Assembly (NCBI GenBank): GCA_007375725.1
Contig: VMEV01000001.1
Location: 15,503-79,502 of the forward strand
Direction: 5' to 3'
Length of the DNA: 64,000 nucleotides
Source: Parcubacteria group bacterium Greene0416_36
GTDB taxonomy: Bacteria; Patescibacteriota; Patescibacteriia; VMEV01
The notes under the pieces were generated by a model. That model made no database searches. It was not told where the DNA came from and worked only from the letters and a program-made list of their open reading frames with translations. Numbering within the stretch: position 1 is the stretch's first letter; each line of letters begins with the position of its first letter. Both the position numbers and the translations under genes were made by a program. Positions 4,229-50,004 of this stretch are shown piece by piece.

Positions 4229-4316
4229 GGTAGGGTGGCCGAGTGGTTGAAGGCGCCGGTCTCGAAAACCGGTATACCGAAAGGTATCATGAGTTCAAAT
4301 CTCATCCCTACCTCCA
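4229..4316 (+). tRNA. tRNA-Ser (anticodon CGA) with a long variable arm
   Basis: Cloverleaf read by eye: acceptor GGTAGGG/CCCTACC, D-arm GCCGAGTGGTTGAAGGC, anticodon loop CTCGAAA, long variable arm, T-arm ATGAGTTCAAATCTCAT, encoded CCA. Confidence 0.7.
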
Positions 4317-4348: not shown

Positions 4349-4420
4349 GAAGTGAAGAGGGATCTCGAAAACCGGTATGCCGAAAGGTATCGTGGGTTCG
4401 AATCCCACTCCCACCTCCCA
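4349..4420 (+). pseudogene. tRNA-like 3'-half remnant (anticodon-like arm, variable arm, T-arm, acceptor 3' strand; no 5' acceptor or D-arm)
   Basis: About 80% identical to the 3' half of the adjacent tRNA-Ser, including GGTTCGAATCC. No complementary 5' acceptor strand lies upstream. Confidence 0.5.
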
Positions 4421-5672: not shown

Positions 5673-6818
5673 CTATTTTTTAGGCTCAAAGGCTTCCCCA
5701 CATCCGGCCAACGACAATGTCGGCTTACGATCTAAGGAGTTTATATTAATAACATATTTTTTTCGCAAATACAAATAGTATCCGACAAACCCAATCATAG
5801 CCGCGTTATCCATGCAGAATTTTGGATCGCTGAATAGAATAGGAATTTCCGGATAATCCTTCATTCCGCGGCGCAATTTTCTGCGGAGTTCCAGATTCAC
5901 ACTCACTCCCCCGCCCACCGTGATCATTTTGGGTTTATGGGTTTTGAGTGTTTTCTCGAGCTTGATCCAGAGAATATCAAACACGGCTTCCTGAAGTGAC
6001 GCGCAATAATCGGGAACAATTTTTTTAAAATTCTCTTTGAGTTCGGCCTCCAGTTTTTGAATTTGATACAAACAAGAGGTCTTGAGACCGGAAAAACTAA
6101 AATTCAAATCATCTTTGGTTTTCATTGGTCTCGGCAAATCATAGGCCTTTCGATTGCCTGATTTGGCAAAATGCTCCACCACCGCTCCCCCAGGATAACC
6201 CAGACCCAATAAACGGGCAATTTTATCGAGAGCCTCACCCGCAGCATCATCGAGTGTTCGGCCAAGGATTGTATATTTACCAATATCATCGACCCAGACG
6301 ATTTCCGTGTGACCGCCGGATACGATCAACGACAAAAACGGATATTCCAACCCCGCGTTTTTTGTATAAAAATTCCCCTTTCGATTCTTGATCAATGCTG
6401 AAAAAATATGGCCTTCGATATGATTGACGGCGATAAGCGGCTTATTATATTCAATCGCCAATTCTTTTGCCTTCTTCACCCCAACTTGTAAGGCGGGGGC
6501 AAGGCCCGGGCCGTAGGTGACGGCGATGGCATCAATTAAATGTAGGGGCAGACCTGAGTGTCTGCCCTGCTCCTCACCCGACGATAGGGTCGGGCGCACA
6601 TGCAAGTGCGCCCCTACGAGACCGGATTTTCTAATGGCCAATTCAATGCACGGACCGATATTTTTTTCATGTTCCATCCGCGCCAAATTCGGCACGACGC
6701 CACCCCATTGTTTGTGGATTTCCACTTGAGACGAGACGACGCTCGAAAGCAGGCAGTCATCTTTTAAAATGGCTACCGAGGTGTCGTCGCAGGAAGTGTC
6801 GATGGCGAGGATATACAC
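5673..6818 (-). CDS. tsaD: tRNA N6-adenosine threonylcarbamoyltransferase TsaD (Kae1/YgjD)
   Basis: MYILAIDTSCDDTSVAIL, HIEGHI and VSGGHTEIV motifs. Contains an in-frame insertion of about 24 aa before IDAIAV. Confidence 0.9.
   Translation of the reverse strand: MYILAIDTSCDDTSVAILKDDCLLSSVVSSQVEIHKQWGGVVPNLARMEHEKNIGPCIELAIRKSGLVGAHLHVRPTLSSGEEQGRHSGLPLHLIDAIAVTYGPGLAPALQVGVKKAKELAIEYNKPLIAVNHIEGHIFSALIKNRKGNFYTKNAGLEYPFLSLIVSGGHTEIVWVDDIGKYTILGRTLDDAAGEALDKIARLLGLGYPGGAVVEHFAKSGNRKAYDLPRPMKTKDDLNFSFSGLKTSCLYQIQKLEAELKENFKKIVPDYCASLQEAVFDILWIKLEKTLKTHKPKMITVGGGVSVNLELRRKLRRGMKDYPEIPILFSDPKFCMDNAAMIGFVGYYLYLRKKYVININSLDRKPTLSLAGCGEAFEPKK
6541..6616. repeat. GC-rich double-hairpin palindromic element inserted in-frame in tsaD
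   Basis: gtaggggcagac-ctgagt-gtctgccc ... gggcgcac-atgcaa-gtgcgcccctac. It encodes VGAHLHVRPTLSSGEEQGRHSGLP between the conserved SGL and IDAIAV blocks, where E. coli TsaD has 4 aa. Confidence 0.7.
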
Positions 6819-6819
6819 A

Positions 6820-6905
6820 AATTAAGAATTAAGAATGAAAAATTAAGAATGAATAAAGAAACAAGAACATATATAATTCTTCATTCTTAATTTTTCATTC
6901 TTCAT
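6820..6905. repeat. AT-rich inverted repeat of the aattaagaatgaa family (copy a)
   Basis: aattaagaattaagaatgaaaaattaagaatgaa ... ttcattcttaatttttcattcttcatt. The same motif recurs at 11747, 25775 and 27797. Confidence 0.6.
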
Positions 6906-8007
6906 TGACTTTATATCTAATCCTCCTCTTCCCCTCCCCCACATGTTCCAAAAAGACATGGAGAATAAGGGATTCCTTCAAATACGGCTGAATCACATCC
7001 ATAATACGCTCGGCCCATTCGATGCACACGATATTAGGGGATTTTCCTCCAAAGGCGGATCCGCCTCCGGCGGAGAAAATCGCGGGCAAGTCGAGGATAG
7101 TAATTTCTTCAGGTTTTTCGAGGCGATAGGTGTCGAGATGTTGTAATTGAAAGGGCTTGCCTTCCCAAGAGGCCTCGTATTCATTGCACAAAATAAAGGT
7201 CGGAGATACGACTGACTCTTTTACTCCCAATCTCTTGGCCAAAAATTGAGTAAACGTAGTTTTGCCCGATCCTAATTGCCCATTAAGCAAAATCACAATC
7301 GACTTTTTACCTAGAAAAGGCTTGATTTCATTGAAAATGATTTCTGAGAATGCATTGGTTTGTTCAACACTCTCCGAAATAAAAGTTTGGGCGTCTTCGA
7401 AGAAACGATCGCCTTTTCGAAGTACCGCCAAGTGTTCTTGGGTCGTATCGATGACTGTGGAAGGAGCTCGAGGGGGTAATTCTCCCGCGTCCAGCACCAA
7501 ATCAATCAAATCTCGCTGTTTACCCGACAAATAATCAAAAATATCCGCCACCTTGTAAGGCGTTTTTTGTCCGGAAGAATTGGCCGAAGTTGCTGTAACC
7601 GGTTTTCCGAACACCCGGACAATTTCGGTGATCAGGGGATGGTCGGGAATGCGAATCCCCAAGGTTCCCTGTATTGACTGGACCCCAGGAGCTACTTTAT
7701 TTTTCCCCTTCGAAATCACCGTCACCGGCCCGGGCAAAAAATTATGGTAGATATTCCGTGCCGTCTCATTCATTTCCACATACTCCCCCGCCATTTTCTC
7801 GTCCACAACCGCAACTGAAAAAGGCTTGTCCTGCCGCTTGGTCTTATATTCGAGGAGTTTGGCCACCGCCTCCGGATTTGTCGCGTCCACCCCCGCCCCA
7901 TAGCAAGTCTCAGTCGGATAAATCAAAAGACCGCCGGAAGCCAATGTTTGGAGGGCGTGATTGATTATATTTTCTTGGGAAGTATTTTTTAAATCGAGAA
8001 TTTGCAT
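6895..8007 (-). CDS. Fused L-threonylcarbamoyladenylate synthase TsaC/YrdC (N-terminal) and TsaE/YjeE ATPase (C-terminal)
   Basis: N-terminal half has YrdC motifs (LIYPTETCYGAGVDA, LPGPVTVI, IRIPDHPL). C-terminal half has TsaE motifs (GQLGSGKTTFTQ, SPTF, HLDTYRL). Start set at MQILDLK (8007); the ORF track extends the frame into the upstream repeat. Confidence 0.75.
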   Translation of the reverse strand: MQILDLKNTSQENIINHALQTLASGGLLIYPTETCYGAGVDATNPEAVAKLLEYKTKRQDKPFSVAVVDEKMAGEYVEMNETARNIYHNFLPGPVTVISKGKNKVAPGVQSIQGTLGIRIPDHPLITEIVRVFGKPVTATSANSSGQKTPYKVADIFDYLSGKQRDLIDLVLDAGELPPRAPSTVIDTTQEHLAVLRKGDRFFEDAQTFISESVEQTNAFSEIIFNEIKPFLGKKSIVILLNGQLGSGKTTFTQFLAKRLGVKESVVSPTFILCNEYEASWEGKPFQLQHLDTYRLEKPEEITILDLPAIFSAGGGSAFGGKSPNIVCIEWAERIMDVIQPYLKESLILHVFLEHVGEGKRRIRYKVNEE

Positions 8008-8022
8008 ATCATATAGAATACA

Positions 8023-8108
8023 GCAACAAATCCCCCTTAATCCCCCTTTGACAAGGGGGAAATAGCGCCCTCCTTTGTCAAAGGGAGGGTTGGGGAGGGA
8101 TTTGTTGC
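8023..8108. repeat. GC-rich palindromic repeat element, copy 1
   Basis: aacaaatccccc..cccctttgacaaggggg..ccctcctttgtcaaagggagggttggggagggatttgttg; outer inverted repeat plus two internal hairpins. Confidence 0.8.
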
Positions 8109-9400
8109 TTATCCCTTCTTTTCCTATGAAACGTAATCGCAAATCGATGAGCTTCTTCTCTCATCCTTTCCACCAAAAGAGGGTCGTTTAAAAAAAATAA
8201 TGCCTGATCATTTTTAATCTCCTCCAATCCATACATATCCGTCTTTTTACGCGTGGGACCTTTGGCCACGGAGGCCACGGGGATCTTCTTCCCCGACCTT
8301 TCCACGGCCATCCGCGCCACGGCGAGCTGGGTTTTCCCGCCATCGATCAGGATCACGTCCGGCACGGACCAATCGTCATGTCGGAGACGCCGCTCCAGCA
8401 CTTCTTCGAGAGCCGCCAGATCATCAGATCCTGTCTCAGAACGTAAAATGAATTTCCGATATTCGTTTCGGTCCGGCTTTCCGTCGACGAAAACGACCAT
8501 GGATCCCACGGTATCGTGGCCTGATGTATGCGAAATATCGTAGGTTTCGATGCGGCACCGTTGGAGCGCACCTATGTGTGCGCCCTCATGACCATGACCA
8601 AGGCCCGAACCATCTCCGACAGGGCGGACACGCAGGTCCGCCCCTACGTCATCGGATGATCCCAACAATGCAATATCACGAATATGCCGCAGAGCAAATG
8701 CCTGATTGCGCAGAATCGCCGCGCGTTCAAAATCTTCGGATTTACCCGCCAGAACCATGTCTCTTTCCAATTTCTTGAGTAATTGTCCCTTTTTTCCTTC
8801 CAGCATCATCTGAATTCCCTTTATATTACGCAAATATTGGCTTCGGTCAATCGCCCCGTCATAGGGGCCGGGACACAGGCCAATCTGATAATCCAGACAT
8901 CCTTTCTCGCTTTTCTCAATCCGCTCATGAAAAGGAAAAATCTTTCGGATAATTTTGAGGGCAATGGTCATGTGTTTTCGTGAGGTATACGGACCGTACC
9001 TCCGCAAAATTTGTAAGGGCACAAAATTTTGTGCCCTTACAAATTGGGTCTCTCGCCAAATCAAAACTCGTGGAAATTTTTCCTTGGTAATCACAAAATA
9101 GCAGAAAGATTTATCGTCTTTACCGAGCGAATTATATTTCGGCTTATATTTCTTGATTAAATTCGCCTCGAGAATGAGGGCCTCGAGCACGGTTTCCGTC
9201 TCGACATAATCCACCTTGGCGCTCTGCCCCACCATATTGAAGATCCTCTCCCCCCTCGAGTCGTTCCCTGTGAAATACTGCCCCACCCGAGAACGCAGAT
9301 CCGTGGCTTTCCCAACATACAAAAGCCCGCCTGATTTATCTTTCCATAAATAGACGCCGGGGGTGTGGGGGAAGGTTTTGACACTCTCCATCAAATTCAT
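8078..9400 (-). CDS. uvrC: Excinuclease ABC subunit C, short form (GIY-YIG plus RNase H-like endonuclease region; no C-terminal HhH domain)
   Basis: GVYLWKDKSGGLLYVGKATDLRSRVGQYF GIY-YIG motif and a RIETYDISHTSG block. The C-terminus runs into repeat copy 1. Contains an in-frame insertion of about 30 aa. Confidence 0.75.
   Translation of the reverse strand: MNLMESVKTFPHTPGVYLWKDKSGGLLYVGKATDLRSRVGQYFTGNDSRGERIFNMVGQSAKVDYVETETVLEALILEANLIKKYKPKYNSLGKDDKSFCYFVITKEKFPRVLIWRETQFVRAQNFVPLQILRRYGPYTSRKHMTIALKIIRKIFPFHERIEKSEKGCLDYQIGLCPGPYDGAIDRSQYLRNIKGIQMMLEGKKGQLLKKLERDMVLAGKSEDFERAAILRNQAFALRHIRDIALLGSSDDVGADLRVRPVGDGSGLGHGHEGAHIGALQRCRIETYDISHTSGHDTVGSMVVFVDGKPDRNEYRKFILRSETGSDDLAALEEVLERRLRHDDWSVPDVILIDGGKTQLAVARMAVERSGKKIPVASVAKGPTRKKTDMYGLEEIKNDQALFFLNDPLLVERMREEAHRFAITFHRKRRDKQQIPPQPSL
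8562..8656. repeat. GC-rich double-hairpin palindromic element inserted in-frame in uvrC (same family as the tsaD insert)
   Basis: gagcgcac-ctatgt-gtgcgccc ... gggcggac-acgcag-gtccgcccctac. Encodes DDVGADLRVRPVGDGSGLGHGHEGAHIGALQ between the conserved LLG and RIExxDISH blocks, where E. coli has about 6 aa. Confidence 0.7.
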
Positions 9401-9505
9401 AATATTCCTTATAGCTTTTAAAAGCTTACCCAAATCCACTAAAAAAACAAAAGCCAACAAGATACAATCCTATCGGCCTTTAAAATGAATTATTTATTTC
9501 TCCGC

Positions 9506-10127: not shown

Positions 10128-11279
10128 TTATCTTGTCAATACCCCCCTCGTCTCCCTCGCACACCTCTCCCACGAAAAATCACGAAGCCGAATCTTGCCC
10201 TTCTCGATCAAATCCCTCTTTAATGCCTCATTTTTTAAAATCCCCGCTATTTTCTCCGCCATATCCTCCACCGAATGCGGATCAAAATAGAGGGCGCCGT
10301 CACGGGCCACTTCCGGAATCGAAGCAATATGAGACGCGACCAGAGGAGTCCCCGCCGTAAACGCCTCCAGAATCGGAATCCCAAACCCTTCATACAATGA
10401 TGGAAACACAAAACAATCAGCACCTTTCATCAGATGAGGTAAGTCGGATTGGGGGACCCAGCCGGGAAACAACAAATCCCTCCCCAACCCTCCCTTTGAC
10501 AAGGGAGGGGGTAGCAGCCTCCCCCTTGTCAAAGGGGGATTGAGGGGGATTTGTTGCTCTATCTCCTCCCACCCCGTCCCCTTCCCTCCCGCCAAAACCA
10601 ATTTATGAGGGATCTGATACTTCTCTTTCAAAATCCGAAACGCGCGAATCAAGCCAACGACATTTTTCTTTTTCTCCAGACGCCCGACATAAAATAAATA
10701 CGGACCCTCAACATATTTTCGGACAATCTCCGACGTTTTATTCCAATCTGTTTTTTTATAAAGCTCCTCATCATATGACTGATACACTACGGAGATTTTG
10801 GACTCCGGAATCCGATAGCGCGCGATCATTTCCTGCCGCGAAAACTCCGAAATCGTGATGATGTGGCGCGCGCGGCGGACAGCCAGTCGCATGGTGAACC
10901 GGTGATAGGCCAGTTCTTTCCAGGAGTACAGTTCTGGAAAAGTCTCAAAACCGATATCGTGGCAGGTGGTGACGGTATTTTGTGGACTGATGATCGGCAA
11001 GGTATGCGCGGGGACAAATAAGACATCGGGAGCATCTGAGAGCATCTCCAGCGACAATCTCCCCTGTGTCCAGAGATATTTCGGCGGCCAATTCAAATAC
11101 TTCACCTTAAAATTCTCCGGCCAAACCGAAAAATCCGAGAGGAGCGGATCTCTCGTATATAACCGATATTGATTCTCGCGGTCCAATCGCGCCAAAGCAC
11201 GAATCAGATGATACGAATACCATTCAGTACCGGTACGTTTGGGTTTATTGGCGCGGGAAGCGTCGATGCCGATTAACAT
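10128..11279 (-). CDS. Family 1 (GT4-type) glycosyltransferase
   Basis: YVGRLEKKKN, LVLAGGKG and ADCFVFPSLYEGFGIPILEA motifs. Start set at MLIGIDAS (11279); the track ORF runs on into upstream repeat copy 3. Confidence 0.75.
   Translation of the reverse strand: MLIGIDASRANKPKRTGTEWYSYHLIRALARLDRENQYRLYTRDPLLSDFSVWPENFKVKYLNWPPKYLWTQGRLSLEMLSDAPDVLFVPAHTLPIISPQNTVTTCHDIGFETFPELYSWKELAYHRFTMRLAVRRARHIITISEFSRQEMIARYRIPESKISVVYQSYDEELYKKTDWNKTSEIVRKYVEGPYLFYVGRLEKKKNVVGLIRAFRILKEKYQIPHKLVLAGGKGTGWEEIEQQIPLNPPLTRGRLLPPPLSKGGLGRDLLFPGWVPQSDLPHLMKGADCFVFPSLYEGFGIPILEAFTAGTPLVASHIASIPEVARDGALYFDPHSVEDMAEKIAGILKNEALKRDLIEKGKIRLRDFSWERCARETRGVLTR
10470..10556. repeat. GC-rich palindromic repeat element, copy 2, lying in-frame (87 bp) inside the glycosyltransferase gene
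   Basis: Near-identical to copies at 11301 and 32514. It translates as QIPLNPPLTRGRLLPPPLSKGGLGRDLL within the GT ORF without a stop. Confidence 0.8.
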
Positions 11280-11300
11280 AATTAAACAACAAACAGCCAA

Positions 11301-11397
11301 CAACAAATCCCTCCCCAACCCTCCCTTTGACAAGGGAGGGGGTAGCAACCTCCCCCTTGTCAAAGGGGGATTGAGGGGGATTTGTTGTTTATTTTTT
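11301..11397. repeat. GC-rich palindromic repeat element, copy 3
   Basis: Same sequence family; lies between the GT start and the hpf stop. Confidence 0.8.
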
Positions 11398-11401: not shown

Positions 11402-11746
11402 TTAATTGTTTTTCGCCCTCACCCCTTCCTTCTGATCCTTGGCATGCAGTTTCTCCTTCGCTTTCTTAAGTTCCATTTCCAGTATTTTCTTGACTTCGAC
11501 GACAGCTTCGTCCAGATTCTTCGCCACACTCTCGGCGCGGATCAGATCACCGGCATTGAGATTCACAATCGCGCGAAATACATCACCTTTGTGATGATGA
11601 GTCGTTTTCTCGACTTCCACTCGGCCATCAATGATTCTGGAGTAGAATTTATCGAGATTGCCGATCTTGTCCTCGATCAAAGACTTGATGGCTGGAGTCA
11701 GGTCAAAATTTTTGGCGGAAATATGAAGAGTGATCATAAAAACCAA
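11402..11746 (-). CDS. hpf: Ribosome hibernation promoting factor / RaiA family
   Basis: ISAKNFDLTPAIKSLIEDKIGNLDKFYSRIIDGRVEV matches the S30AE/RaiA pattern. Confidence 0.8.
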   Translation of the reverse strand: MVFMITLHISAKNFDLTPAIKSLIEDKIGNLDKFYSRIIDGRVEVEKTTHHHKGDVFRAIVNLNAGDLIRAESVAKNLDEAVVEVKKILEMELKKAKEKLHAKDQKEGVRAKNN

Positions 11747-11820
11747 TTAAAAATTAAAAATGCAAAATTAAAAATGAATAAAAAAGCTGTTTCATTCTTA
11801 ATTTTTAATTATTAATTTTG
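11747..11820. repeat. AT-rich inverted repeat of the aattaagaatgaa family (copy b)
   Basis: aattaaaaatgaataaaaaagctgtttcattcttaattttt. Confidence 0.5.
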
Positions 11821-11823
11821 AAT

Positions 11824-12495
11824 TTAAAACCCCACCATCCTTATCCTCTCTCTCAGCTGCACCCCGTGCTGGTCGCGGACTTGCTGTTTGACATAGGAAA
11901 TGAGCATAACGGCGTGATTGGCGGTGCCTTTTCCCAAATTCACGAAAAAATTCGCGTCTTCTTCCGGCACCAGAATATCACCCATTTTTTTCCCCCGCAA
12001 ACCGGCTTTGGCCAATAAGTAGGAAGCGGGGATTTTTCCCGATTTACGAAAACCGTCATGTTCTTCCATGCAGTCACGAAGAATATCGTTTTTAAGCGCG
12101 CCCTGTTTGTCATTGGCGAGTTCACACGAATCCGGTTTGAGGACCACATCTTCAAATAAAGGCCCCGCATACCCAGCCAGTCCCGAAAAACGTGAATCAT
12201 CCGGAATTTCTGGCGTAGGATAAAATAGCACCACGGATTTGATCGCTCCATTATTACAGATCACGGGTTCTCCTTGAGGCAGTAAAAAAGAACTGATCTT
12301 CTCCAATTCAAGCTTTCGCACAGCCTCTTCGGCCTCTTGTTTGGATGACATCTTCAAACAATACAAAGCCGTCCCACCTACTTTTAAAGTGGTATACGGG
12401 GCGAGGGGCTCATTGAGGAGTAATTTTTCTTGGAAATTTTGTTGGAGAAAATGAAGGGGGTCCATAAGCATGTCATGGTGAGCCTGTCGAACCAT
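11824..12495 (-). CDS. murB: UDP-N-acetylenolpyruvoylglucosamine reductase (short form)
   Basis: LAPYTTLKVGG motif and dcw-cluster context. Confidence 0.75.
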   Translation of the reverse strand: MVRQAHHDMLMDPLHFLQQNFQEKLLLNEPLAPYTTLKVGGTALYCLKMSSKQEAEEAVRKLELEKISSFLLPQGEPVICNNGAIKSVVLFYPTPEIPDDSRFSGLAGYAGPLFEDVVLKPDSCELANDKQGALKNDILRDCMEEHDGFRKSGKIPASYLLAKAGLRGKKMGDILVPEEDANFFVNLGKGTANHAVMLISYVKQQVRDQHGVQLRERIRMVGF

Positions 12496-14007: not shown

Positions 14008-14286
14008 AAAAAGGGCTTGGTTGACAGGCGGGATTCTTTGACGTATACTAATATAAAGTTGTAAACAAGGTATCTGATCCAACTATAGGATCTACTTGCA
14101 TGGACTTGTTTACAGACTTCATATTTTACTTTGCTTCAAAGAGTCCTATGGCTATAGGATTCTTTTAGTTTTAATTGCAATTACTATAAGTAAAAACAAG
14201 GTTAAAACTAAAATGGTTTGATCCATAACACCTATCACCCCCTTTCCTGAGTTAATGACTCAAGATCCGGATCAGATACGCAAGTA
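14008..14286 (+). ncRNA. Conserved non-coding element copy A; candidate small RNA carrying its own promoter (function unknown)
   Basis: About 85% identical to 16002..16278. Stems are preserved with loop changes and a G-U-compatible substitution (GAGTCCTA..TAGGATTC versus GAATCCTA..TAGGATTC). No conserved ORF. Confidence 0.4.
14021..14049 (+). promoter_or_regulatory. Sigma-70-like promoter TTGACA-N17-TATACT
   Basis: ttgacaggcgggattctttgacgtatact; conserved in copy B at 16015..16043. Confidence 0.5.
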
Positions 14287-14342
14287 TTTCAACTTAACCT
14301 ACCAACACAAATTTGCAAGGTCGTTTTATCCCCAAAAATTCG

Positions 14343-16001: not shown

Positions 16002-16278
16002 TAAAAGGGATTGGTTGACAGAGCGGATTCTTTGACGTATACTCAGATAAAGTTGTAAACAAGATACCCGATATCTTTTGTGTCTACTTGCACGGACTTG
16101 CTTACAGACTTCACCTCACGTTTGTTTAGAGAATCCTACCCTATAGGATTCTTTTTGTTTTAATTGCAATTACTATAAGTAAAAACAAAGTTAAAACTAA
16201 AATAGTTTGATCCATAGTTCTCTGTCTCACCCCCTTTCCGAGTTTAATAACTCCAGACCCGGATCGGATACGCAAGTA
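16002..16278 (+). ncRNA. Conserved non-coding element copy B; candidate small RNA
   Basis: Paralog of 14008..14286 with the same TTGACA-N17-TATACT promoter (16015..16043). Confidence 0.4.
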
Positions 16279-16356
16279 ATTCACATTACATCAAAGAATT
16301 ATATTTTCAATGCTGACTTATCCACCAAAAAAGAGCCACCTGAGGTGGCTCTTTTT

Positions 16357-22692: not shown

Positions 22693-23931
22693 ATGAAATG
22701 GAAACACTACCTCAAAACTGCGGCCGGCGGACTTCTCGTCCATAAATCACGATCAGTCTTGACGATTTTAGGAATTGTGATTGGAATCGCCGCCATTATC
22801 ATGATTTCATCTCTTGGGGAAGGCGCCAACCAGCTCATTCTGAGAGAAATCCAAGCAATGGGATCCCGAACCCTAGTGGTCACTCCCGGAAAAGAACCGC
22901 GGGGTCCATCAAATATAAATTCTCTATTTCTGGATGCTCTCAAGGAAAGGGAACTCAAAGCTCTCCAAGATCAGTCCAAAGTCCCTTCTGTAGTGGATGC
23001 AACACCTATGATCATTGTACCCGGAAGCGTTTCTTATGGAGGCGAAACCTATGATCCCACGACTATGGGCAGTTCTGAAAATTTTGCCGAACTCATGGAT
23101 GTCTACCCCAACCCAGGACGATTTTTCAATGCCGAGGAAGTCCGCCAAAATGAAAGCGTCGCCATTATCGGCTCCGAGGTAAAAAATAAACTTTTCGGCC
23201 CTTCCGAAGGCCTTGGCGCAAAAATAAAAATACGAGGGCGCTATTTCCGAGTGATCGGTATTTTCCCACAAACCGGCAGTTCTATTTTCTTTAATATGGA
23301 TGACTTGATAGTGATCCCATATACCACGGGACAAAGATATTTATTGGGTACGGACCATTTCTTCGAAATCATTGTGCGGGCCCAGAGCGAAGCCTTGGTT
23401 CCGCGAGCCGTAGCCGAAATAGAAGCCACCCTCCGAGAAACCCAAGGAATCACGGATCCGGAAAAAGATTATTTCCATATCCATACACAAATCGATCTGG
23501 CTGACCGAGTAGGTCTGGTCGGGACAATTCTAACCCTCCTGCTCTCTTCCATCGCCGCCATATCTCTCCTGGTAGGCGGCATCGGCATCATGAATATCAT
23601 GCTGGTATCCGTGACCGAACGCACCCGAGAAATCGGTCTGCGAAAAGCAATCGGCGCCACGGAGAAAAATATCATGACCCAATTCGTGTTGGAAGCCATT
23701 TTGCTTACGGGACTGGGCGGAATAATTGGAACAACCCTCGGCATAACAGCCTCTTTCATTATTGGACAACTCATACGCCGCTTTGGGGGCCTTGAATGGG
23801 TCTTCTCGATTCCCATAGCCTCGGCTTTGGTCGGCATCACCCTTTCCTGTTTGATCGGCCTGATTTTCGGCATATTCCCCGCCCGAAGCGCGGCCAAGAA
23901 AAATCCAATAGAGGCGCTAAGGTACGAATAA
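22693..23931 (+). CDS. ABC transporter permease (FtsX/MacB-type)
   Basis: N-terminal TM, large periplasmic domain, C-terminal 3-TM FtsX-like block ending IEALRYE. Confidence 0.85.
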   Translation: MKWKHYLKTAAGGLLVHKSRSVLTILGIVIGIAAIIMISSLGEGANQLILREIQAMGSRTLVVTPGKEPRGPSNINSLFLDALKERELKALQDQSKVPSVVDATPMIIVPGSVSYGGETYDPTTMGSSENFAELMDVYPNPGRFFNAEEVRQNESVAIIGSEVKNKLFGPSEGLGAKIKIRGRYFRVIGIFPQTGSSIFFNMDDLIVIPYTTGQRYLLGTDHFFEIIVRAQSEALVPRAVAEIEATLRETQGITDPEKDYFHIHTQIDLADRVGLVGTILTLLLSSIAAISLLVGGIGIMNIMLVSVTERTREIGLRKAIGATEKNIMTQFVLEAILLTGLGGIIGTTLGITASFIIGQLIRRFGGLEWVFSIPIASALVGITLSCLIGLIFGIFPARSAAKKNPIEALRYE

Positions 23932-23933: not shown

Positions 23934-23970
23934 CAAGTAGGGGCGGTCACATAGGACCGCCCCTACTTGT
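23934..23970. terminator. GC-rich hairpin of the gtaggggc...gcccctac family (bidirectional terminator-like)
   Basis: caagtaggggcggtc-acatag-gaccgcccctacttg, between convergent genes. Confidence 0.55.
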
Positions 23971-23980: not shown

Positions 23981-24973
23981 CTAAGCAAACGCCAAATTCA
24001 CATCCGGCTGAGCGAACGATCCCAAAAGAGAGACTTTTGCTCGAATCAAATCCTGCCGGCTCATTTTTTTCGCCTGAGCAATCTTAGCTTTCGAAACCGC
24101 ATATTTGATAATGGCTCCAGGGATATCCACACCAGTGGCTTGCATGATGCCCTCGAATCCAGGATTAGAATTCACCTCGATGATCTGCGGCCCTTCGTGG
24201 GTGCGGAGCATATCCACGCCGGCAATCTCGATGCCGATGACTTTGGCAGCTTTCAGAGCCAGCGTCTTCTCATCAGGAGTAAGATCCACTTTCGCCACAC
24301 TCCCGCCCAAATGAAAATTGGACCGGAATTCGCCGGGCTTGGCCGTCCGCTCCATGGCGGCAATGACTTTGCCTCCCACGACAAAAATCCGCAAATCTTT
24401 GCCTTTGGCTTCTTCAATATATTCTTGGATGAGATATTCATTTCCATGCCAGTCCATGAGTAAATCCATCACCGAAGTCAATGTCTGAGCATCCGGAATA
24501 TATAAAACTCCTTTTCCTTGGGTGCCGCAGGCTTTTTTGATCACCACTGGAAACTTGCCGAGTTTTTCCACGGCCTTTTCAATTTGATCCCGTGAATACG
24601 CGACAATGGTCCGCGGAATAGGAATATGATGATGATCCAAATATTGCAAAGTTCGAATCTTATTTTTCGTAATGATCACTGGCAAATGAGTATTGACCAC
24701 GGTATAACCGCAATACTGAAGATGTTTGATCGCACCCGCTTCCAGATCATAGTTATCGTTAAATCCAGGGCGCACAATCACCACATCCACTTTCCCCAAC
24801 GGCTTATTTTTATATAAAAAACGTGTTTTTTTGCCGGTCCAGTCCAGCTGGCAATCGTGCTTCCTTATCACCCGTAAATCATGCCCCATCTCGCGAACCT
24901 TAGCACGAAGAACTCTCATGCTATGAGAAAAGTCCTCGTCTTTTTTTGTGTAGTGAAATATAGCTATCTGCAT
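23981..24973 (-). CDS. ATP-grasp ligase of the RimK family
   Basis: ATP-grasp pattern (VVIKKACGTQGKGV, LIQEYIEEAKGKDLRIFVVGGKV, IAGVDML). Confidence 0.75.
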   Translation of the reverse strand: MQIAIFHYTKKDEDFSHSMRVLRAKVREMGHDLRVIRKHDCQLDWTGKKTRFLYKNKPLGKVDVVIVRPGFNDNYDLEAGAIKHLQYCGYTVVNTHLPVIITKNKIRTLQYLDHHHIPIPRTIVAYSRDQIEKAVEKLGKFPVVIKKACGTQGKGVLYIPDAQTLTSVMDLLMDWHGNEYLIQEYIEEAKGKDLRIFVVGGKVIAAMERTAKPGEFRSNFHLGGSVAKVDLTPDEKTLALKAAKVIGIEIAGVDMLRTHEGPQIIEVNSNPGFEGIMQATGVDIPGAIIKYAVSKAKIAQAKKMSRQDLIRAKVSLLGSFAQPDVNLAFA

Positions 24974-25130: not shown

Positions 25131-25772
25131 TTATTTTGAAATTCGCAGATAGTTGATTTTTTTCCCCGCTTTCAAATGCTTTTTTTCGAAATGGGTTTGG
25201 ATCTGGAGGATCGGATCCAGATTTATTTGCGCGTGAATATCTTCCGTGGACTCGCCAATCTTCCAGCCCAACTCCGCCGCGATTTCTTTGGAATACAAAA
25301 ATAAATTCGGATCATCGGTTTTGAGATTCACCGTACCTGCTTGGCCCAGTAAATAGCGATAAAGATCCAAAAAAATATGTGAGGTCAGACGCCGCGCCGC
25401 TTGTCCTTTTTTGGGAAAAGGATCCGGAAAGGTGAGCCAGATCTCAGATACTGAACCCTCTTTTAAGAATTCTCGCAAAAACACTACATCCATTCGAATA
25501 AATAAAACATTTTCAAGCGTGAATTCTGATCTCATTTTCGCTCCATACCAAAGACGCTCCCCCTGCCGGTCCAGAGCGATGAAATTGGTATGAGGAAATT
25601 TCTTTGCCATTTCGATGGTGAAATCCCCTCGTCCGCATCCTAATTCCATTACCAGTGCTCCTTTTCGTGACAAAAAAAGCCCCAGCTTGGAGCGGAAATC
25701 CGGATCCGGCTTTTCAATCACCCCCGGCCACTCTTTTAAGGTTTCGATGAGTTTTTTTTTGATTCGAGGCAC
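25131..25772 (-). CDS. trmB: tRNA (guanine46-N7)-methyltransferase
   Basis: ELGCGRGDF and LTFPDPFPKK motifs. Confidence 0.8.
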   Translation of the reverse strand: MPRIKKKLIETLKEWPGVIEKPDPDFRSKLGLFLSRKGALVMELGCGRGDFTIEMAKKFPHTNFIALDRQGERLWYGAKMRSEFTLENVLFIRMDVVFLREFLKEGSVSEIWLTFPDPFPKKGQAARRLTSHIFLDLYRYLLGQAGTVNLKTDDPNLFLYSKEIAAELGWKIGESTEDIHAQINLDPILQIQTHFEKKHLKAGKKINYLRISK

Positions 25773-25774
25773 AT

Positions 25775-25860
25775 GACAAAAAAATTAAGAATGAAGAATT
25801 AAGAATGAAGCGGACTGTTGTTCATCTTTAATTCTTCATTCTTCATTCTTAATTATATGA
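25775..25860. repeat. AT-rich inverted repeat of the aattaagaatgaa family (copy c)
   Basis: aattaagaatgaagaattaagaatgaagcggactgttgttcatctttaattcttcattcttcattcttaatt. Confidence 0.5.
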
Positions 25861-25862
25861 CG

Positions 25863-26822
25863 CTATTTTTTCGACAACAGTAAGGCAAGTTTCACCGCTC
25901 CCGCTACCGGCGCTTGGGACGAAAAAATAAGATTCGCCTTGGGATAAAATTTCGCCATTTTATCGATGAATAAAGAACGGATATATTTTTTGCGATGGAG
26001 AATCGATCCAGCGATCACGAGATCGAATGAAATATATTTTAGTTTCAGCCGAGTAATCACGGCATGTACAGAGTCAAATAACTCCGAAACGGCTAGGATT
26101 TGAATGTCGCGAACCACGGAATCAGCGAAAGGATCCACCGAGTCTAAAAGCATGGCCAATTCTCCCATCTCACTTTTCCCAAACGAGGGGGCATAAATAT
26201 GACGCAAAATATCTCGGAAATCATGGATTTTGAAATGACCCATCACCAACTTTTCAAGCTTTGTTTTGGGTCCTCGCCCATCATAGCTCTTAGCTGCGGC
26301 TTCCAGAATTTTCCGCCCCAGCCAATATCCCCCGCCCTGATCAGCTAAGAGATAATCCAGTCCCGAAGAGGACGCACTCTCTCCTGCCGGATTGGCCCCG
26401 TAGCAATGAGTGCCAGTTCCGGCGATCAACGAAACACCGAAAGAGGCGTCTGATGCGCTCGGAAATACAATTTTTATATCATTTCCGGCCTCTCCATGCG
26501 CAACGCGGTAAGGTCTCAGCATTTTTTTAAATAAAATACTCGCTTTGATTTCATCCGATTCCATATCTAAGCCGGCCATACCCAAATAAGCCGCCGCTAC
26601 AGGCGCTCCTTTTTTCTTCAACTTTTTCCAAACTTTCGCAATCGTCTTCTCAATATTCTCGAAATTTTTATCCCTCCCGAGCATGGTATTCCAAGACCCA
26701 GGACCTCCTTTTTCCGTAAACAAAATCTTCCCGGCCATATCAGCAATCGCCACTTCCGTTTTAGTCGCCCCCGCGTCCACCCCGAGGAGGAAAGATTCTT
26801 TTTTAGTGGGTGAGAAAAACAT
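25863..26822 (-). CDS. BadF/BadG/BcrA/BcrD-type ATPase (N-acetylglucosamine kinase-like)
   Basis: LLGVDAGATKTEVAI N-terminal ASKHA motif and GTGTHCYG. Confidence 0.65.
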   Translation of the reverse strand: MFFSPTKKESFLLGVDAGATKTEVAIADMAGKILFTEKGGPGSWNTMLGRDKNFENIEKTIAKVWKKLKKKGAPVAAAYLGMAGLDMESDEIKASILFKKMLRPYRVAHGEAGNDIKIVFPSASDASFGVSLIAGTGTHCYGANPAGESASSSGLDYLLADQGGGYWLGRKILEAAAKSYDGRGPKTKLEKLVMGHFKIHDFRDILRHIYAPSFGKSEMGELAMLLDSVDPFADSVVRDIQILAVSELFDSVHAVITRLKLKYISFDLVIAGSILHRKKYIRSLFIDKMAKFYPKANLIFSSQAPVAGAVKLALLLSKK

Positions 26823-26836: not shown

Positions 26837-27796
26837 TTACTGAATAGGTCTCATCTTCACGGGAACCCCACCCTCCGGCATAGGCACGCCCGAGAGATCA
26901 ATCACGCTCCGCTTGAAACACGCTTCTCCAGTGGAATGGGGCCAAGTCTGGGCATAATAATCATAAGGTTCATTTTTCTGGCCTTGATTATCGAGGCGAA
27001 AATTGGCACAGAGTTCGAACTCATTTTCAGATACAATGCGGTAGACAAAAGGCTTACCGGTCTCTTTATCGGCCCAGGATTCGGATGAGAGCCAGGTAGA
27101 CACCGATTTAATTTGGCCGAGATTCGCGGGAAACTCTTTTTTGATCGAATAAAAATTACGGACTTCATTCTCAATTTGGGACAATTTCTGGAGATTTTCT
27201 TCATCCAAACGGCGCATGCGAGTCTCGGCCGGACTCTCGACTATGGCAAAAGCCGTTACCAAAGAGCCTAAAACCAATACAATGGCCCCAATGGCGGAGT
27301 AGCGAATCACCGAATCGTTCTTTTTGGCCTCGCGGCGCTTGATATCATACAAATAATACCCAAATATAAAGGCGGTAATGCTCATGGTGACGAAAGCTTT
27401 GAGCATAAATTTCGTCGTCAGCTCGCCATCGAGAAAACTGTAAACCAAGGCCACGAGATAACCCAAAATGGTGACAGATGCGACGAATAGGATGAAATAA
27501 GACAACCAGCGACGAATGCCCGCCTCGAGCGATAACATTTTAGACACAATAGCCTTATTGATCTTCGACACCGCCAAAAAATAAATCGGCGCGCCGATAA
27601 TAATCGACGAAACCGCGAATTTAATCGCCCCCGAGCTGTACGCGGCCGAGTAATTCGTTACCAAATCCGGCACATATTTATTGACGACCTGATAAAGAAT
27701 CATGCCCACACTCGTCGCCGTGAAACTGAGCGCGACAAGAGAAAGCAAGTACCAAAAAGCGTATTGGGCGGAATTGGTGGGGGCGGGTTGGGACAT
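26837..27796 (-). CDS. Hypothetical membrane protein (N-terminal multi-TM, C-terminal soluble domain)
   Basis: ORF with several hydrophobic spans and a C-terminal Cys/Trp-containing domain. Confidence 0.4.
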   Translation of the reverse strand: MSQPAPTNSAQYAFWYLLSLVALSFTATSVGMILYQVVNKYVPDLVTNYSAAYSSGAIKFAVSSIIIGAPIYFLAVSKINKAIVSKMLSLEAGIRRWLSYFILFVASVTILGYLVALVYSFLDGELTTKFMLKAFVTMSITAFIFGYYLYDIKRREAKKNDSVIRYSAIGAIVLVLGSLVTAFAIVESPAETRMRRLDEENLQKLSQIENEVRNFYSIKKEFPANLGQIKSVSTWLSSESWADKETGKPFVYRIVSENEFELCANFRLDNQGQKNEPYDYYAQTWPHSTGEACFKRSVIDLSGVPMPEGGVPVKMRPIQ

Positions 27797-27841
27797 AAGA
27801 AAAAAATGAAAAATTAAGAATGGAGAATGAAGCAGCAGAAC

Positions 27842-31972: not shown

Positions 31973-31983
31973 ATTATTTACAT

Positions 31984-32069
31984 AAAATCCCCCTCAGTCC
32001 CCCTTTGACAAGGGGGAGGCTGCTACGCCCCCTCCCTTGTCAAAGGGAGGGTTGGGGAGGAATTTGTTG
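31984..32069. repeat. GC-rich palindromic repeat element, copy 4 (between the dnaK start and the hsp20 stop)
   Basis: aaaatccccctcagtccccctttgacaagggggaggctgctacgccccctcccttgtcaaagggagggttggggaggaatttgttg. Confidence 0.8.
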
Positions 32070-32071
32070 TT

Positions 32072-32513: not shown

Positions 32514-32599
32514 AACAAATCCCCCTCGGTCCCCCTTTGACAAGGGGGAAGCTGCTACCCCCTCCCTTGTCAAAGGGAGGGTTGGGGAGGGATTTGTTG
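32514..32599. repeat. GC-rich palindromic repeat element, copy 5 (between hsp20 and grpE)
   Basis: Same family; near-identical to copies 2 and 3. Confidence 0.8.
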
Positions 32600-32611
32600 C
32601 TAAATTGTTAA

Positions 32612-33906: not shown

Positions 33907-33937
33907 ATTTTTTCTATTTTAATCATGTGAAGCGGAA

Positions 33938-34018
33938 GCAACAAATCCCCCTTAATCCCCCTTTGACAAGGGGGAGACTGCGCCCTCCCTTGTCAAATGG
34001 AGGGTTGGGGAGGGATTT
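33938..34018. repeat. GC-rich palindromic repeat element, copy 6 (between translin-like and hrcA)
   Basis: gcaacaaatcccccttaatccccctttgacaagggggagactgcgccctcccttgtcaaatggagggttggggagggatt. Confidence 0.8.
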
Positions 34019-34022
34019 TTAT

Positions 34023-49764: not shown

Positions 49765-49969
49765 AATTTTTTCCTACTACCGCCTTGAAAAGGTAGGAGC
49801 ACAGCGCGCTGTGCCCCTACCTTTTAGCATCCGTCGGGCGTGATATCACGACAAGCATGGAAGTGATTCCACTTTTTCCCACTTTTAACCACTACAAGCC
49901 CAAGATACACCACACCGACCCAAACATCAATATTATTCCTGTGCATAAGTCATTTTTTTAAGAAAAATA

Positions 49970-50004
49970 AATGTAGGGGCGTTGCATGCAACGCCCCTAC
50001 ATTT
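49970..50004. terminator. GC-rich hairpin of the gtaggggc...gcccctac family (bidirectional terminator-like)
   Basis: aatgtaggggcgttgcatgcaacgcccctacattt flanked by A/T runs. A related hairpin aaaggtaggagcacagcgcgctgtgcccctaccttt lies at 49788..49824. Confidence 0.55.

What the first reader, a model, noticed from the sequence alone, without database searches (positions are those of the whole stretch)
6541..8656. GC-rich double-hairpin palindromic elements inserted in-frame into two essential genes (tsaD and uvrC)
Two conserved proteins carry extra segments of 24-30 aa exactly where bacterial homologs have short loops. In TsaD the segment lies between the SGL and IDAIAV blocks. In UvrC it lies between LLG and RIExxDISH. 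At the DNA level both inserts are the same element: gtaggggc, then hairpin A (gcgcac or gcggac stem), then a spacer, then hairpin B, then gcccctac. Both are in the same orientation relative to the coding strand, open in frame, and far more GC-rich than the flanking sequence. Both translate to a similar VGA(H/D)L(H/R)VRP peptide start. Single-hairpin versions of the same motif occur intergenically at 23934, 49788 and 49970 as terminator-like structures. This resembles Rickettsia palindromic elements, which are selfish palindromic repeats that insert in-frame into protein genes. It has not, to my knowledge, been described for this kind of genome.
Basis: partly seen in the sequence, partly recalled or inferred. 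Interest (0 to 1): 0.72.

Follow-up and report, generated by a model that had tools for sequence, protein, structure and literature searches.

The report
In-frame REP palindromes in Parcubacteria genes

Summary
tsaD (5673-6818, minus) and uvrC (8078-9400, minus) each contain a GC-rich (about 65% against 45.5%) double-hairpin segment. Each segment is in frame and sits where homologs have a short loop or a variable linker. Each unit is GTAG followed by GGGCNNAC-N6-GTNNGCCC. The two units point outward, which makes a head-to-head REP dimer, the REPIN layout. Three intergenic copies (23937, 49793, 49973) carry GTAG...CTAC at both ends ("double-foot" REPs) and lie next to gene ends.

The same 26-nt REP occurs in at least 120 unrelated metagenome contigs. 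There it is often dimeric, sometimes in frame inside real genes, and nested in or beside RayT (REP-associated tyrosine transposase) genes. That matches the REPs published for TnpA-REP subclass 2.4. Intragenic REP dimers encoding 20-30 residues, including in uvrABC and tRNA-related genes, were described in 2013.

The closer family is GTAG REP/REPIN, not Rickettsia RPE. The claims of one shared element and a shared orientation do not hold, because only the REP units are shared.

No RayT gene lies in the 80 kb available, and no relative is close enough to show an empty site. Verdict: new member of a known kind, in a candidate-phyla-radiation (CPR) host. Interest is modest.

The parts
6542..6617 (-). 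Head-to-head REP dimer (REPIN-like), in frame in tsaD, encoding TsaD V68-L92 (VGAHLHVRPTLSSGEEQGRHSGLPL). Layout on the + strand: unit B = GTAG 6542-6545 plus hairpin GGGCAGAC/CTGAGT/GTCTGCCC 6546-6567; spacer 6568-6591 (24 nt); unit A = hairpin 6592-6613 plus CTAC 6614-6617, which reads GTAGGGGCGCACTTGCATGTGCGCCC on the minus strand.
   Evidence: Sequence. Pattern hits. Folding z = -3.95 as RNA and -3.57 as DNA. No counterpart in solved TsaDs or in most CPR homologs. AF2 predicts coil for residues 66-91, with pLDDT below 50 at 77-88.
8560..8647 (-). Head-to-head REP dimer, in frame in uvrC, encoding V272-Q300 of the 460-aa ORF (VGADLRVRPVGDGSGLGHGHEGAHIGALQ). Unit A = 8622-8647, reading GTAGGGGCGGACCTGCGTGTCCGCCC on the minus strand; spacer 8586-8621 (36 nt); unit B = 8560-8585, GTTGGAGCGCACCTATGTGTGCGCCC, with a decayed tag and one stem mismatch.
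   Evidence: It lies in the variable linker between the UVR domain and the RNase-H endonuclease domain. AF2 residues 262-299 are coil with pLDDT below 50. Unit A is identical, loop included, to a REP in metagenome locus L103.
23937..23966 (.). Single 'double-foot' REP (GTAGGGGCGGTC ACATAG GACCGCCCCTAC). It sits between the stop codons of the convergent ORFs 22693-23931(+) and 23981-24973(-). The flanking AAACAA/TTGTTT extends the stem.
   Evidence: Folding z = -10.6. The scan flags it as terminator-like.
49793..49820 (.). Degenerate double-foot REP (GTAGGAGCACAGCGCGCTGTGCCCCTAC), 29 nt upstream of the mraZ start at 49764.
   Evidence: Folding z = -5.75. mraZ assignment.
49973..50000 (.). Double-foot REP that is a perfect 28-nt palindrome (GTAGGGGCGTTGCATGCAACGCCCCTAC), 20 nt downstream of the stop of ORF 50020-50667(-). 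It is flanked by A-rich and T-rich runs.
   Evidence: Folding z = -12.6.
5673..6818 (-). tsaD host gene (381 aa).
   Evidence: Pfam PF00814. 100% identical to P0001, named as from 'Parcubacteria group bacterium Gr01-1014_18'.
8078..9400 (-). uvrC host gene (440 aa as called; the open frame extends up to 9460). Its last roughly 10 codons and its stop lie inside a different 89-nt palindromic element at 8022-8110.
   Evidence: Pfam. Gene calls in L004. Repeat coordinates.

Best explanation
**What it is**

The two inserts are head-to-head dimers of a GTAG-tagged repetitive extragenic palindrome (REP). This is the REPIN layout: two inverted REP units with the GTAG tags facing outward and a non-conserved spacer between them. 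The family has three G-C pairs at the stem foot, an 8-bp stem and a 6-nt loop. It also has 'double-foot' GTAG...CTAC singles. In other bacteria this family is the cognate repeat of a clade of RayT / TnpA-REP (HUH-Y1) transposases.

**How it most likely works**
1. Shown: the unit anatomy, the dimer layout, and the existence of multiple copies.
2. Shown in other genomes only: the same REP is nested in and flanks RayT genes.
3. Inferred from published REP/RayT biology: copies spread as single-stranded hairpins that are cut and joined next to the GTAG guide by RayT.
4. Inferred: insertions into coding DNA survive only when their length keeps the frame, the frame used has no stop codon, and the site is a tolerant surface loop or linker. 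Supporting this, 3 of 6 frames are open, both sites vary in length among homologs, and both are predicted disordered.
5. Inferred: the insert is transcribed and translated as an extra flexible loop. The ORFs stay intact through their conserved C-terminal domains, there is no T-tract terminator after the intragenic hairpins, and nothing resembles an intron or intein.
6. Inferred: the three intergenic copies near gene ends act as hairpin terminators or mRNA stabilisers, or are simply tolerated there.

Whether the elements are still mobile in this genome, or are fossils without a resident RayT, is unknown.
For: **Anatomy and statistics**
- Unit anatomy, copy counts and shuffle controls.
- The dimer ends are related but the spacers are not.

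**Insert sites**
- Both inserts lie in loops that vary in length among homologs.
- Both are predicted as low-confidence coil.
- The inserts are identical in three independent assemblies.

**Same REP elsewhere**
- Those contigs show the same stem variants (GGAC, GCAC, AGAC) and loops (CTGCGT, CTATGT) as the window, always with compensating stems. 179 of 248 GTAGGGGC sites form a perfect 8-bp stem with a 6-nt loop.
- Head-to-head dimers there are 52-174 nt long.
- In-frame copies lie inside real genes elsewhere: an AddB-like PD-(D/E)XK nuclease, AlaRS, a PgeF laccase-domain protein, a PKS and a GlcD-like oxidase.

**Link to RayT**
- Four Y1_Tnp / REP_Tyr_transpos ORFs lie in those REP-selected loci. 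In three of them the REP lies inside the ORF just after the HUH motif, and a further unit lies just outside the gene in two of these.
- Of 97 homologs of that RayT in which both flanking motifs could be found, 95 carry the translated REP dimer 'VGADLRVCP...GAHxGAPLP' at that position.

**Literature**
- GTAG REPs, head-to-head dimers with 20-100-bp spacers, placement within 20 bp of 3' ends, and intragenic dimers encoding 20-30 aa in uvrABC and tRNA-related genes: PMC3733652.
- TnpA-REP subclass 2.4, with three G-C pairs at the stem foot, double-foot REPs and in-frame REPs inside genes: PMC6006769.
- REPIN definition: abstract of PMC3337134.
Against: - No RayT-like ORF was found in the 80.4 kb of this genome that could be read. 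This rests on Pfam scans of 20 small ORFs and a motif scan of all frames.
- Only 7 units at 5 loci were seen, so the genome-wide copy number is unknown.
- No relative is closer than 58% (TsaD) or 54% (UvrC) identity. No empty site can be shown, so insertion is inferred from alignment gaps only.
- The TsaD loop also carries unrelated, mostly non-palindromic inserts in other CPR lineages. Loop expansion there does not need REPs.
- Six other CPR loci (66 kb in total) have no copy of this REP.
- Net UvrC linker length suggests some native residues were lost or replaced.
- There are no transcript or peptide data.
Confidence: 0.78

Rival explanations
1. Fossil REPs. The elements are genuine GTAG REPs but are no longer mobile in this reduced genome. 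RayT was lost, or was never resident and the copies arrived by horizontal transfer or recombination. The copies persist because the intragenic ones are harmless loops and the intergenic ones serve as terminators.
For: No RayT-like ORF lies in 80 kb. One uvrC unit has a decayed tag and a stem mismatch, and one intergenic copy is degenerate. The REP is absent from six other CPR loci. Density is low, about one locus per 16 kb.
Against: Six of the seven units keep perfect stems; only the decayed uvrC unit has one stem mismatch. Only about 80 kb of a genome of unknown size was readable, so RayT could lie elsewhere. RayT is typically single-copy (PMC5581495 abstract).
Confidence: 0.35
2. Locally evolved GC-rich hairpins, such as terminator stems, that only look like a family. 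The intragenic segments are ordinary lineage-specific loop expansions.
For: The TsaD loop and the UvrC linker are indel hotspots with unrelated inserts in other lineages. The intergenic copies look like terminators.
Against: Eight matches to a 26-nt pattern against 0.02 expected. A unit with an identical loop occurs in unrelated metagenome contigs. The same stem and loop variants are seen across at least 120 contigs. The repeat is physically associated with RayT genes elsewhere.
Confidence: 0.04
3. A selected peptide module. The VGAxLxVRP...GxHxGxPL segment is kept for a protein-level function, since the same frame is used in TsaD, UvrC and the RayT family.
For: The same reading frame for both units is seen in TsaD, UvrC and 95 of 97 RayT homologs.
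Against: Variation is compensatory at the DNA stem (GCAC/GTGC, GGAC/GTCC, AGAC/GTCT), not conservative at the peptide level. Other genes read the units in other frames, such as GQTHRSAPT and RADTQVRPY. The frame choice is constrained by the TAG in GTAG. The spacers are unrelated. The predicted structure is disordered.
Confidence: 0.05
4. An artefact or a removable element: assembly chimera, intron or intein-like segment.
For: None beyond the unusual composition.
Against: The sequence is identical in independent assemblies from different samples. At 76-88 nt it is too short for an intein or a group I/II intron. No Rfam family matches it. The ORFs are continuous.
Confidence: 0.01

Closest known systems
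GTAG-tagged REPs and their intragenic dimers (Di Nocera, De Gregorio & Rocco 2013, PMC3733652)
   Same: A GTAG tag sits at the foot of a GC-rich 6-13-bp stem. Sub-families differ by complementary stem changes. Head-to-head dimers have 20-100-bp spacers. Copies lie within about 20 bp of ORF 3' ends, between convergent or same-direction genes. Intragenic dimers encode 20-30 aa, often in excinuclease ABC, other repair genes and tRNA-related genes.
   Different: The host is a Parcubacteria (CPR) genome, which was not among the 8 phyla surveyed. Two of the 5 loci seen are intragenic, a high fraction, though the sample is tiny. The stem sequence GGGC-NN-AC could not be matched to one of their 24 numbered families because the figure is not held.
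REPs cognate to TnpA-REP subclass 2.4 (Quentin, Siguier, Chandler & Fichant 2018, PMC6006769)
   Same: Canonical REPs have three G-C pairs at the stem foot. 'Double-foot' GT[AG]G...C[TC]AC variants exist. REPs are inserted in frame between the HUH and Tyr motifs of the transposase itself and in unrelated genes. The family is scattered over many phyla. I reproduced the in-gene REP in 95 of 97 RayT homologs.
   Different: No subclass 2.4 gene was found in the 80 kb of this genome. The assignment rests on REP features and on co-occurrence in other genomes.
REPIN-RAYT systems (Bertels & Rainey 2011, PMC3116915 and PMC3337134)
   Same: Two inverted REPs plus a spacer form a larger hairpin, which is proposed to be the mobile unit.
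   Different: REPINs are described as extragenic, with a conserved spacer within a genome. Here the two dimers have unrelated spacers of different length and lie inside genes. Population structure and a resident RAYT were not shown.
Rickettsia palindromic elements (RPE; Ogata et al. 2000, from my own knowledge, and as discussed in PMC3733652)
   Same: Palindromic repeats are inserted in frame into conserved genes of a reduced-genome, host-dependent bacterium and add surface peptide segments.
   Different: RPE-1 is longer (about 100-150 bp) and unrelated in sequence. RPE-4 and RPE-6 are CGTC-tagged REPs. This family is GTAG-tagged and is linked to RayT elsewhere.
Bacterial MITEs such as Correia or ERIC elements (from my own knowledge; review PMC10969869 listed)
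   Same: Small non-autonomous palindromic repeats that can sit in or next to genes and fold in RNA.
   Different: MITEs have terminal inverted repeats derived from an IS element and a target-site duplication. No duplication flanks these inserts (the flanks are GGTCTC|GTAG...CTAC|ATTTAA), and the ends are GTAG-tagged hairpins.

Membership tests
GTAG-tagged REP / REPIN (RayT-associated) | GT[AG]G tetranucleotide 0-2 nt 5' of a hairpin foot | tested here: met
   Nine GC-rich GTAG+hairpin hits, counted on both strands; three units are in the two intragenic dimers, and their fourth unit has a decayed tag (GTTG). All have the tag 0-2 nt from the stem. Shuffles give 0.9.
GTAG-tagged REP / REPIN (RayT-associated) | GC-rich stem of 6 bp or more with a short loop. 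For the subclass 2.4 type, three consecutive G-C pairs at the stem foot. | tested here: met
   Stems are GGGCNNAC/GTNNGCCC (8 bp) with 6-nt loops. The foot is GGG/CCC. The criterion is from PMC6006769.
GTAG-tagged REP / REPIN (RayT-associated) | Inverted (head-to-head) dimers with 20-100-bp spacers | tested here: met
   The tsaD dimer has a 24-nt spacer and the uvrC dimer a 36-nt spacer, both with GTAG facing outward. The same layout is seen in metagenome loci, with dimers 52-174 nt long.
GTAG-tagged REP / REPIN (RayT-associated) | Repeated many times in the genome | tested here: inconclusive
   Seven units at 5 loci in 80.4 kb. The rest of the genome could not be fetched: the source genome is not in the genome collection, and P0001 is not listed from JGI.
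GTAG-tagged REP / REPIN (RayT-associated) | A cognate RayT/TnpA-REP gene flanked by, or containing, the REP in the same genome | tested here: inconclusive
   None in 80.4 kb. In other genomes with the same REP the feature is met: L069, L103 and L119, and 95 of 97 homologs.
GTAG-tagged REP / REPIN (RayT-associated) | Intergenic copies preferentially close to ORF 3' ends, between convergent or same-direction genes | tested here: met
   23937 lies between convergent stops, 6 nt and 15 nt away. 49973 lies 20 nt after a stop. 49793 lies between same-direction genes.
GTAG-tagged REP / REPIN (RayT-associated) | Extragenic location (the classical definition) | tested here: not met
   Two of the 5 loci lie inside ORFs. 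However, intragenic REPs are an accepted minority in this family (PMC3733652; PMC6006769).
Rickettsia palindromic elements (RPE) | Palindromic repeat inserted in frame in conserved ORFs | tested here: met
Rickettsia palindromic elements (RPE) | Sequence family: RPE-4/6 are CGTC-tagged REPs; RPE-1 is an element of about 100-150 bp | tested here: not met
   The tag here is GTAG, not CGTC. The RPE-4/6 assignment is from PMC3733652. No direct alignment to RPE-1 was done.
MITE | Terminal inverted repeats derived from an IS element, plus a target-site duplication | tested here: not met
   No direct repeat flanks either insert. No IS or transposase lies in the window.
Intein / self-splicing intron | Splicing domains or a catalytic RNA fold | tested here: not met
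   The segment is 76-88 nt. No Rfam family matches it, and no Pfam domain covers it.

The most novel reading that the evidence does not exclude
A REP/REPIN population is active in an ultra-small, probably host-dependent CPR genome and lands in coding DNA unusually often. Counting the second, 89-nt palindrome family, three in-frame events lie within 5 kb, and a fourth copy supplies the uvrC C-terminus. On this reading, palindromic repeats are a significant source of the lineage-specific loop insertions long noted in CPR proteins. The recurrence in an excision-repair gene and a tRNA-modification gene would reflect a real targeting bias shared with Proteobacteria and Verrucomicrobia, not chance.
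Probability: 0.12. Interest if true: 0.55.

Novelty: new member of a known kind. Interest (0 to 1): 0.3.

Why it matters
- It extends RayT-type REPs, and their ability to sit in frame inside essential genes, to the candidate phyla radiation. In those genomes little spare non-coding DNA is expected (general knowledge of CPR genomes; coding density was not measured here), and unexplained protein insertions are common.
- It adds a distant data point to an unexplained published pattern: intragenic REPs tend to lie in excision-repair and tRNA-related genes.
- For annotation, it explains odd peptides such as VGADLRVRP, GAHxGAPL, GRTRRSAPT and RADTQVRPY as translated REPs rather than protein motifs.
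- It does not reveal a new mechanism.

Tried and rejected
1. **Empty sites.** The genome-collection scan with TsaD returned only a 42%-identical Saccharibacteria locus. The best protein relatives are 58% (TsaD) and 54% (UvrC) identical. So no insertion-free ortholog close enough to define exact insert boundaries or a target-site duplication was available.
2. **RayT in the source genome.** Pfam scans of 20 small ORFs and an HUH...Y-x-NP motif scan of all frames of the window plus 16 kb of extra flanks found nothing.
3. **Are the other CPR TsaD loop inserts also palindromic elements?** Only the insert in P0037 is: about 150 nt, MFE -65 to -72 kcal/mol, z = -3.3. The inserts in P0004, P0098, P0106 and P0086 are not. 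So 'this loop is always hit by palindromes' is rejected.
4. **Terminator function for the intragenic hairpins.** No T-tract terminator was called at the REP hairpins of either insert; the one terminator-like call near the uvrC insert (8496-8512) lies outside them.
5. **Rfam.** Only two tRNAs were found.
6. **'Same orientation, same frame' as evidence of specificity.** Rejected, because the dimers are quasi-symmetric and the TAG closes one frame on each strand.
7. **DNA-uptake-sequence idea.** I considered this because uptake sequences form inverted-repeat terminators and are enriched in repair genes in Neisseria (my own knowledge). I dropped it: density is low (9 octamers in 64 kb), and the REP anatomy and RayT linkage explain the data.
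8. **The 89-nt element in the glycosyltransferase as a clean insertion.** Homologs show a net gain of only about 15 residues, so part of the native segment is replaced or overlaid.

Full report
**Source and genes**

The window comes from a CPR bacterium. The TsaD ORF (5673-6818, minus strand) is 100% identical to a protein that NCBI names as from 'Parcubacteria group bacterium Gr01-1014_18' (the name is in the taxonomy). The ORF has a strong TsaD Pfam match. The ORF at 8078-9460 (minus; called start 9400) has the GIY-YIG, UVR and UvrC RNase-H endonuclease domains of UvrC. Between them lies a Sua5/TsaC-TsaE fusion gene.

Read in coding sense, tsaD contains GTAG-GGGCGCAC-TTGCAT-GTGCGCCC, then 24 nt, then GGGCAGAC-ACTCAG-GTCTGCCC-CTAC (6617 down to 6542). 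uvrC contains GTAG-GGGCGGAC-CTGCGT-GTCCGCCC, then 36 nt, then GGGCGCAC-ACATAG-GTGCGCTC-CAAC (8647 down to 8560).

- The octamer GTAGGGGC occurs 9 times in 64 kb against 0.6 expected.
- GTAG followed at once by a perfect hairpin occurs 10 times against 0.9 in dinucleotide shuffles, and nine of those share the GGGC stem foot.
- The 26-nt unit with up to 3 mismatches occurs 8 times against 0.02 expected.
- The inserts are 64-66% GC in a 45.5% GC window, and are identical in three independent assemblies from different samples.

At the protein level, TsaD residues 66-87 have no counterpart in solved TsaD structures or in most CPR homologs. The UvrC segment lies in the linker between the UVR helix and the endonuclease domain, which is 13-15 residues long in the shortest homologs and variable in others. 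AlphaFold models built from those alignments put both segments in low-confidence coil. For TsaD, mean pLDDT is 89.9, residues 66-91 are coil and 77-88 are below 50. For UvrC, residues 262-299 are below 50.

1. The two inserts are related only at their hairpin units. The spacers are unrelated and differ in length. The global alignment scores 55.5 in parallel and 64 in antiparallel orientation, against 24.9 +/- 4.6 for shuffles.
2. 'Same orientation' therefore has no support. Each insert is a quasi-symmetric inverted pair.
3. The distal uvrC unit has a decayed tag (GTTG) and one stem mismatch.
4. The shared 'VGA...' start is largely forced. The frame that reads TAG inside GTAG is closed on either strand, and only three of six frames are open in each insert.

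**What it is**

The anatomy is that of a GTAG-tagged REP: a GTAG guide tetranucleotide at the foot of a GC-rich stem-loop. The two gene-borne inserts are head-to-head dimers with the tags facing outward, which is the REPIN layout. The three intergenic copies carry the tag on both sides (GTAG...CTAC). They sit 6 and 15 nt from two convergent stop codons (23937-23966), 20 nt after a stop (49973-50000), and 29 nt upstream of mraZ (49793-49820).

The literature describes these features.
- Di Nocera et al. 2013 (PMC3733652) define GTAG REP families, sub-families that differ by complementary stem changes, head-to-head dimers with 20-100-bp spacers, and placement within 20 bp of ORF 3' ends. They also report intragenic REPs, of which more than half are dimers or grouped repeats encoding 20-30 amino acids. 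Many of these lie in excinuclease ABC, other repair genes and tRNA-related genes. They equate Rickettsia RPE-4 and RPE-6 with CGTC-tagged REPs.
- Quentin et al. 2018 (PMC6006769) describe, for TnpA-REP subclass 2.4, canonical REPs with three G-C pairs at the stem foot, 'double-foot' GT[AG]G...C[TC]AC REPs, and REPs inserted in frame within the transposase gene and in unrelated genes.

**Evidence from elsewhere**

In those loci:
- 179 of 248 GTAGGGGC sites form a perfect 8-bp stem with a 6-nt loop;
- the variable stem positions are GGAC, GCAC, AGAC and CGAC, always compensated, and the first three are the variants in the window;
- the common loops include CTGCGT and CTATGT, both present in the window;
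- outward-facing dimers are 52-174 nt long;
- one unit in locus L103 is identical, loop included, to the uvrC unit.

The same REP lies in frame inside bona fide genes elsewhere. Examples are an AddB-like PD-(D/E)XK nuclease ('VGAHLRVRPAEGQTHRSAPT'), alanyl-tRNA synthetase, a PgeF laccase-domain protein, a polyketide synthase and a GlcD-like oxidase.

Four of the 120 REP-selected loci encode Y1_Tnp proteins whose best NCBIfam match is 'REP-associated tyrosine transposase'. In three of them the REP lies inside the ORF just after the HUH motif, and in two of these (L069, L103) another unit lies just outside the gene. A database search with one of these proteins returned at least 7,969 relatives, many of which JGI names RayT. 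In 95 of the 97 top hits where both flanking motifs could be located, the segment after NH(F/I)HGI reads 'VGADLRVCP...GAHxGAPLP'. That is a translated head-to-head REP dimer, often tandemly expanded. This reproduces the published subclass 2.4 feature and ties the window's REP family to a RayT clade.

**Mechanism**

Shown:
- the unit and dimer anatomy;
- multiple copies in the window;
- in-frame, stop-free placement in disordered, length-variable loops;
- linkage of the same REP to RayT genes in other genomes.

Inferred from published REP/RayT biology:
- copies spread as single-stranded hairpins processed next to the GTAG guide by a Y1 HUH transposase;
- insertions into genes persist only if the frame is kept, no stop is introduced and the site tolerates a loop;
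- the segments are translated, since there is no intron or intein signature, no Rfam match, and no T-tract terminator called at the intragenic REP hairpins;
- the intergenic copies may serve as terminators or RNA stabilisers.

**Limits**

- I found no RayT-like gene in the 80.4 kb of this contig that I could assemble from the window and its flanks. The census is 7 units at 5 loci.
- No relative is close enough to show an empty site.
- Six other CPR loci (66 kb) lack this REP.
- The TsaD loop is an indel hotspot in CPR generally. Seven other TsaDs carry unrelated inserts there, and only one of them (P0037, about 150 nt) is strongly palindromic.

The elements may therefore be fossils rather than active.

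**Rivals**

- Chance or convergent hairpins are excluded by the statistics and by the cross-genome sequence identity.
- A selected peptide module is unlikely. The variation is compensatory at the stem rather than conservative at the peptide, and other genes read the units in other frames.
- An artefact or a spliced element is excluded by the independent assemblies and by the small size.

**Comparison and novelty**

By membership it is a GTAG REP of the subclass 2.4 type, not an RPE (different tag) and not a MITE (no target-site duplication, no IS-derived ends). The phenomenon is known. What seems unreported is its presence in Parcubacteria/CPR: no paper holds both 'repetitive extragenic palindrom...' and 'Parcubacteria', and the CPR/palindromic/in-frame search returned nothing relevant. 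The only paper holding both 'REP-associated tyrosine transposase' and 'Patescibacteria' was not opened. I rate it a new member of a known kind, with interest about 0.3.

**A related observation**

The window holds a second, more abundant palindromic family of about 89 nt, with six full copies at 86% mean identity and folding z of -6 to -7.
- One copy lies in frame inside a GT4 glycosyltransferase (10468-10556), with a net gain of about 15 residues relative to homologs.
- Another copy (8022-8110) supplies the last codons and the stop of uvrC.

So at least three in-frame palindrome events lie within 5 kb. That is the basis for the more novel, low-probability reading that palindromic repeats are a general source of CPR protein insertions.

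Noticed in passing
window 8022-8110, 10468-10556, 11299-11387, 31980-32072, 32514-32602, 33937-34025; partial copies near 17499, 27842, 40433 and 52865: A second palindromic repeat family of about 89 nt...CAACAAATCCCCCTCAATCCCCCTTTGACAAGGGGGAGGCTGCTACCCCCTCCCTTGTCAAAGGGAGGGTTGGGGAGGGATTTGTTG. There are six full copies at 86% mean identity, and each folds into one long hairpin (z = -6 to -7). The copy at 10468-10556 is in frame inside a GT4 glycosyltransferase (peptide LNPPLTRGRLLPPPLSKGGLGRDLL), with a net gain of about 15 residues against homologs. The copy at 8022-8110 encodes the last roughly 10 codons and the stop of uvrC and reaches the start of the tsaC-tsaE gene. It does not fit the REP rule: a single central GTAG lies 5 nt from a stem.
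   Followed up: partly
L069 5600-6187, L103 2001-2471, L119 9120-9800 (metagenome loci); proteins P0241-P0360: RayT-like Y1 transposases carry a translated REP dimer (VGADLRVCP...GAHxGAPLP), often tandemly expanded to more than 100 residues, directly after the HUH motif. This is seen in 95 of 97 homologs examined. It matches the published TnpA-REP subclass 2.4 feature (PMC6006769), so it is not new, but it is very widespread: at least 7,969 relatives.
   Followed up: yes
L029 3647-6844(-), L062 4215-7328(+), L068 12222-13193(+), L106 2326-5541(+), L112 2941-11109(+): The same REP family is in frame inside an AddB-like PD-(D/E)XK nuclease, alanyl-tRNA synthetase, a PgeF laccase-domain protein, a GlcD-like FAD oxidase and a polyketide synthase from unrelated metagenome contigs. 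This echoes the published tendency toward repair and tRNA-related genes.
   Followed up: partly
TsaD alignment A1, columns 90-148; L002 10211-10363: The loop after TsaD helix alpha-1 is an insertion hotspot in CPR. P0004, P0015, P0037, P0074, P0086, P0098 and P0106 carry unrelated inserts of 9-53 aa. The P0037 insert is itself an imperfect palindrome of about 150 nt (MFE -65 to -72 kcal/mol) of a different family. The others are not palindromic, and one is a TATAC-type simple repeat.
   Followed up: partly
window 6812-6899, 11717-11824, 25768-25863, 27790-27833: AT-rich inverted repeat pairs built from AATTAAGAATGAA-like units occupy several intergenic regions, including the one between tsaD and tsaC-tsaE.
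   Followed up: no
window 6895-8007 (minus): Sua5/TsaC and TsaE are fused into one gene directly upstream of tsaD. The same fusion and gene order appear in three other CPR loci (L002, L003, L129).
   Followed up: no
window 4229-4316 and 4363-4418: tRNA-Ser(CGA) is followed 47 nt later by an 86%-identical copy of its 3' half. Neither ARAGORN nor Rfam calls this copy a tRNA. It could be a leftover attachment-site duplication or a decayed tRNA.
   Followed up: no
window 14009-14296 and 16003-16288: Three blocks of 62-76 nt are repeated at 82-96% identity with a constant offset of about 1.99 kb. This suggests a tandem duplication of a roughly 2-kb unit with conserved upstream regions.
   Followed up: no
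window 56400-56407, inside ORF 55343-57451; L127 1348-7756: A lone GCCCCTAC octamer without a hairpin lies inside a TraG/TrwB-like (DUF87, T4SS-DNA_transf) gene. It may be chance or a REP relic. Just beyond the window's right end the contig encodes an N6_N4 methylase, a Schlafen/AlbA_2 protein and a ResIII-restriction endonuclease, which looks like a defence island.
   Followed up: no
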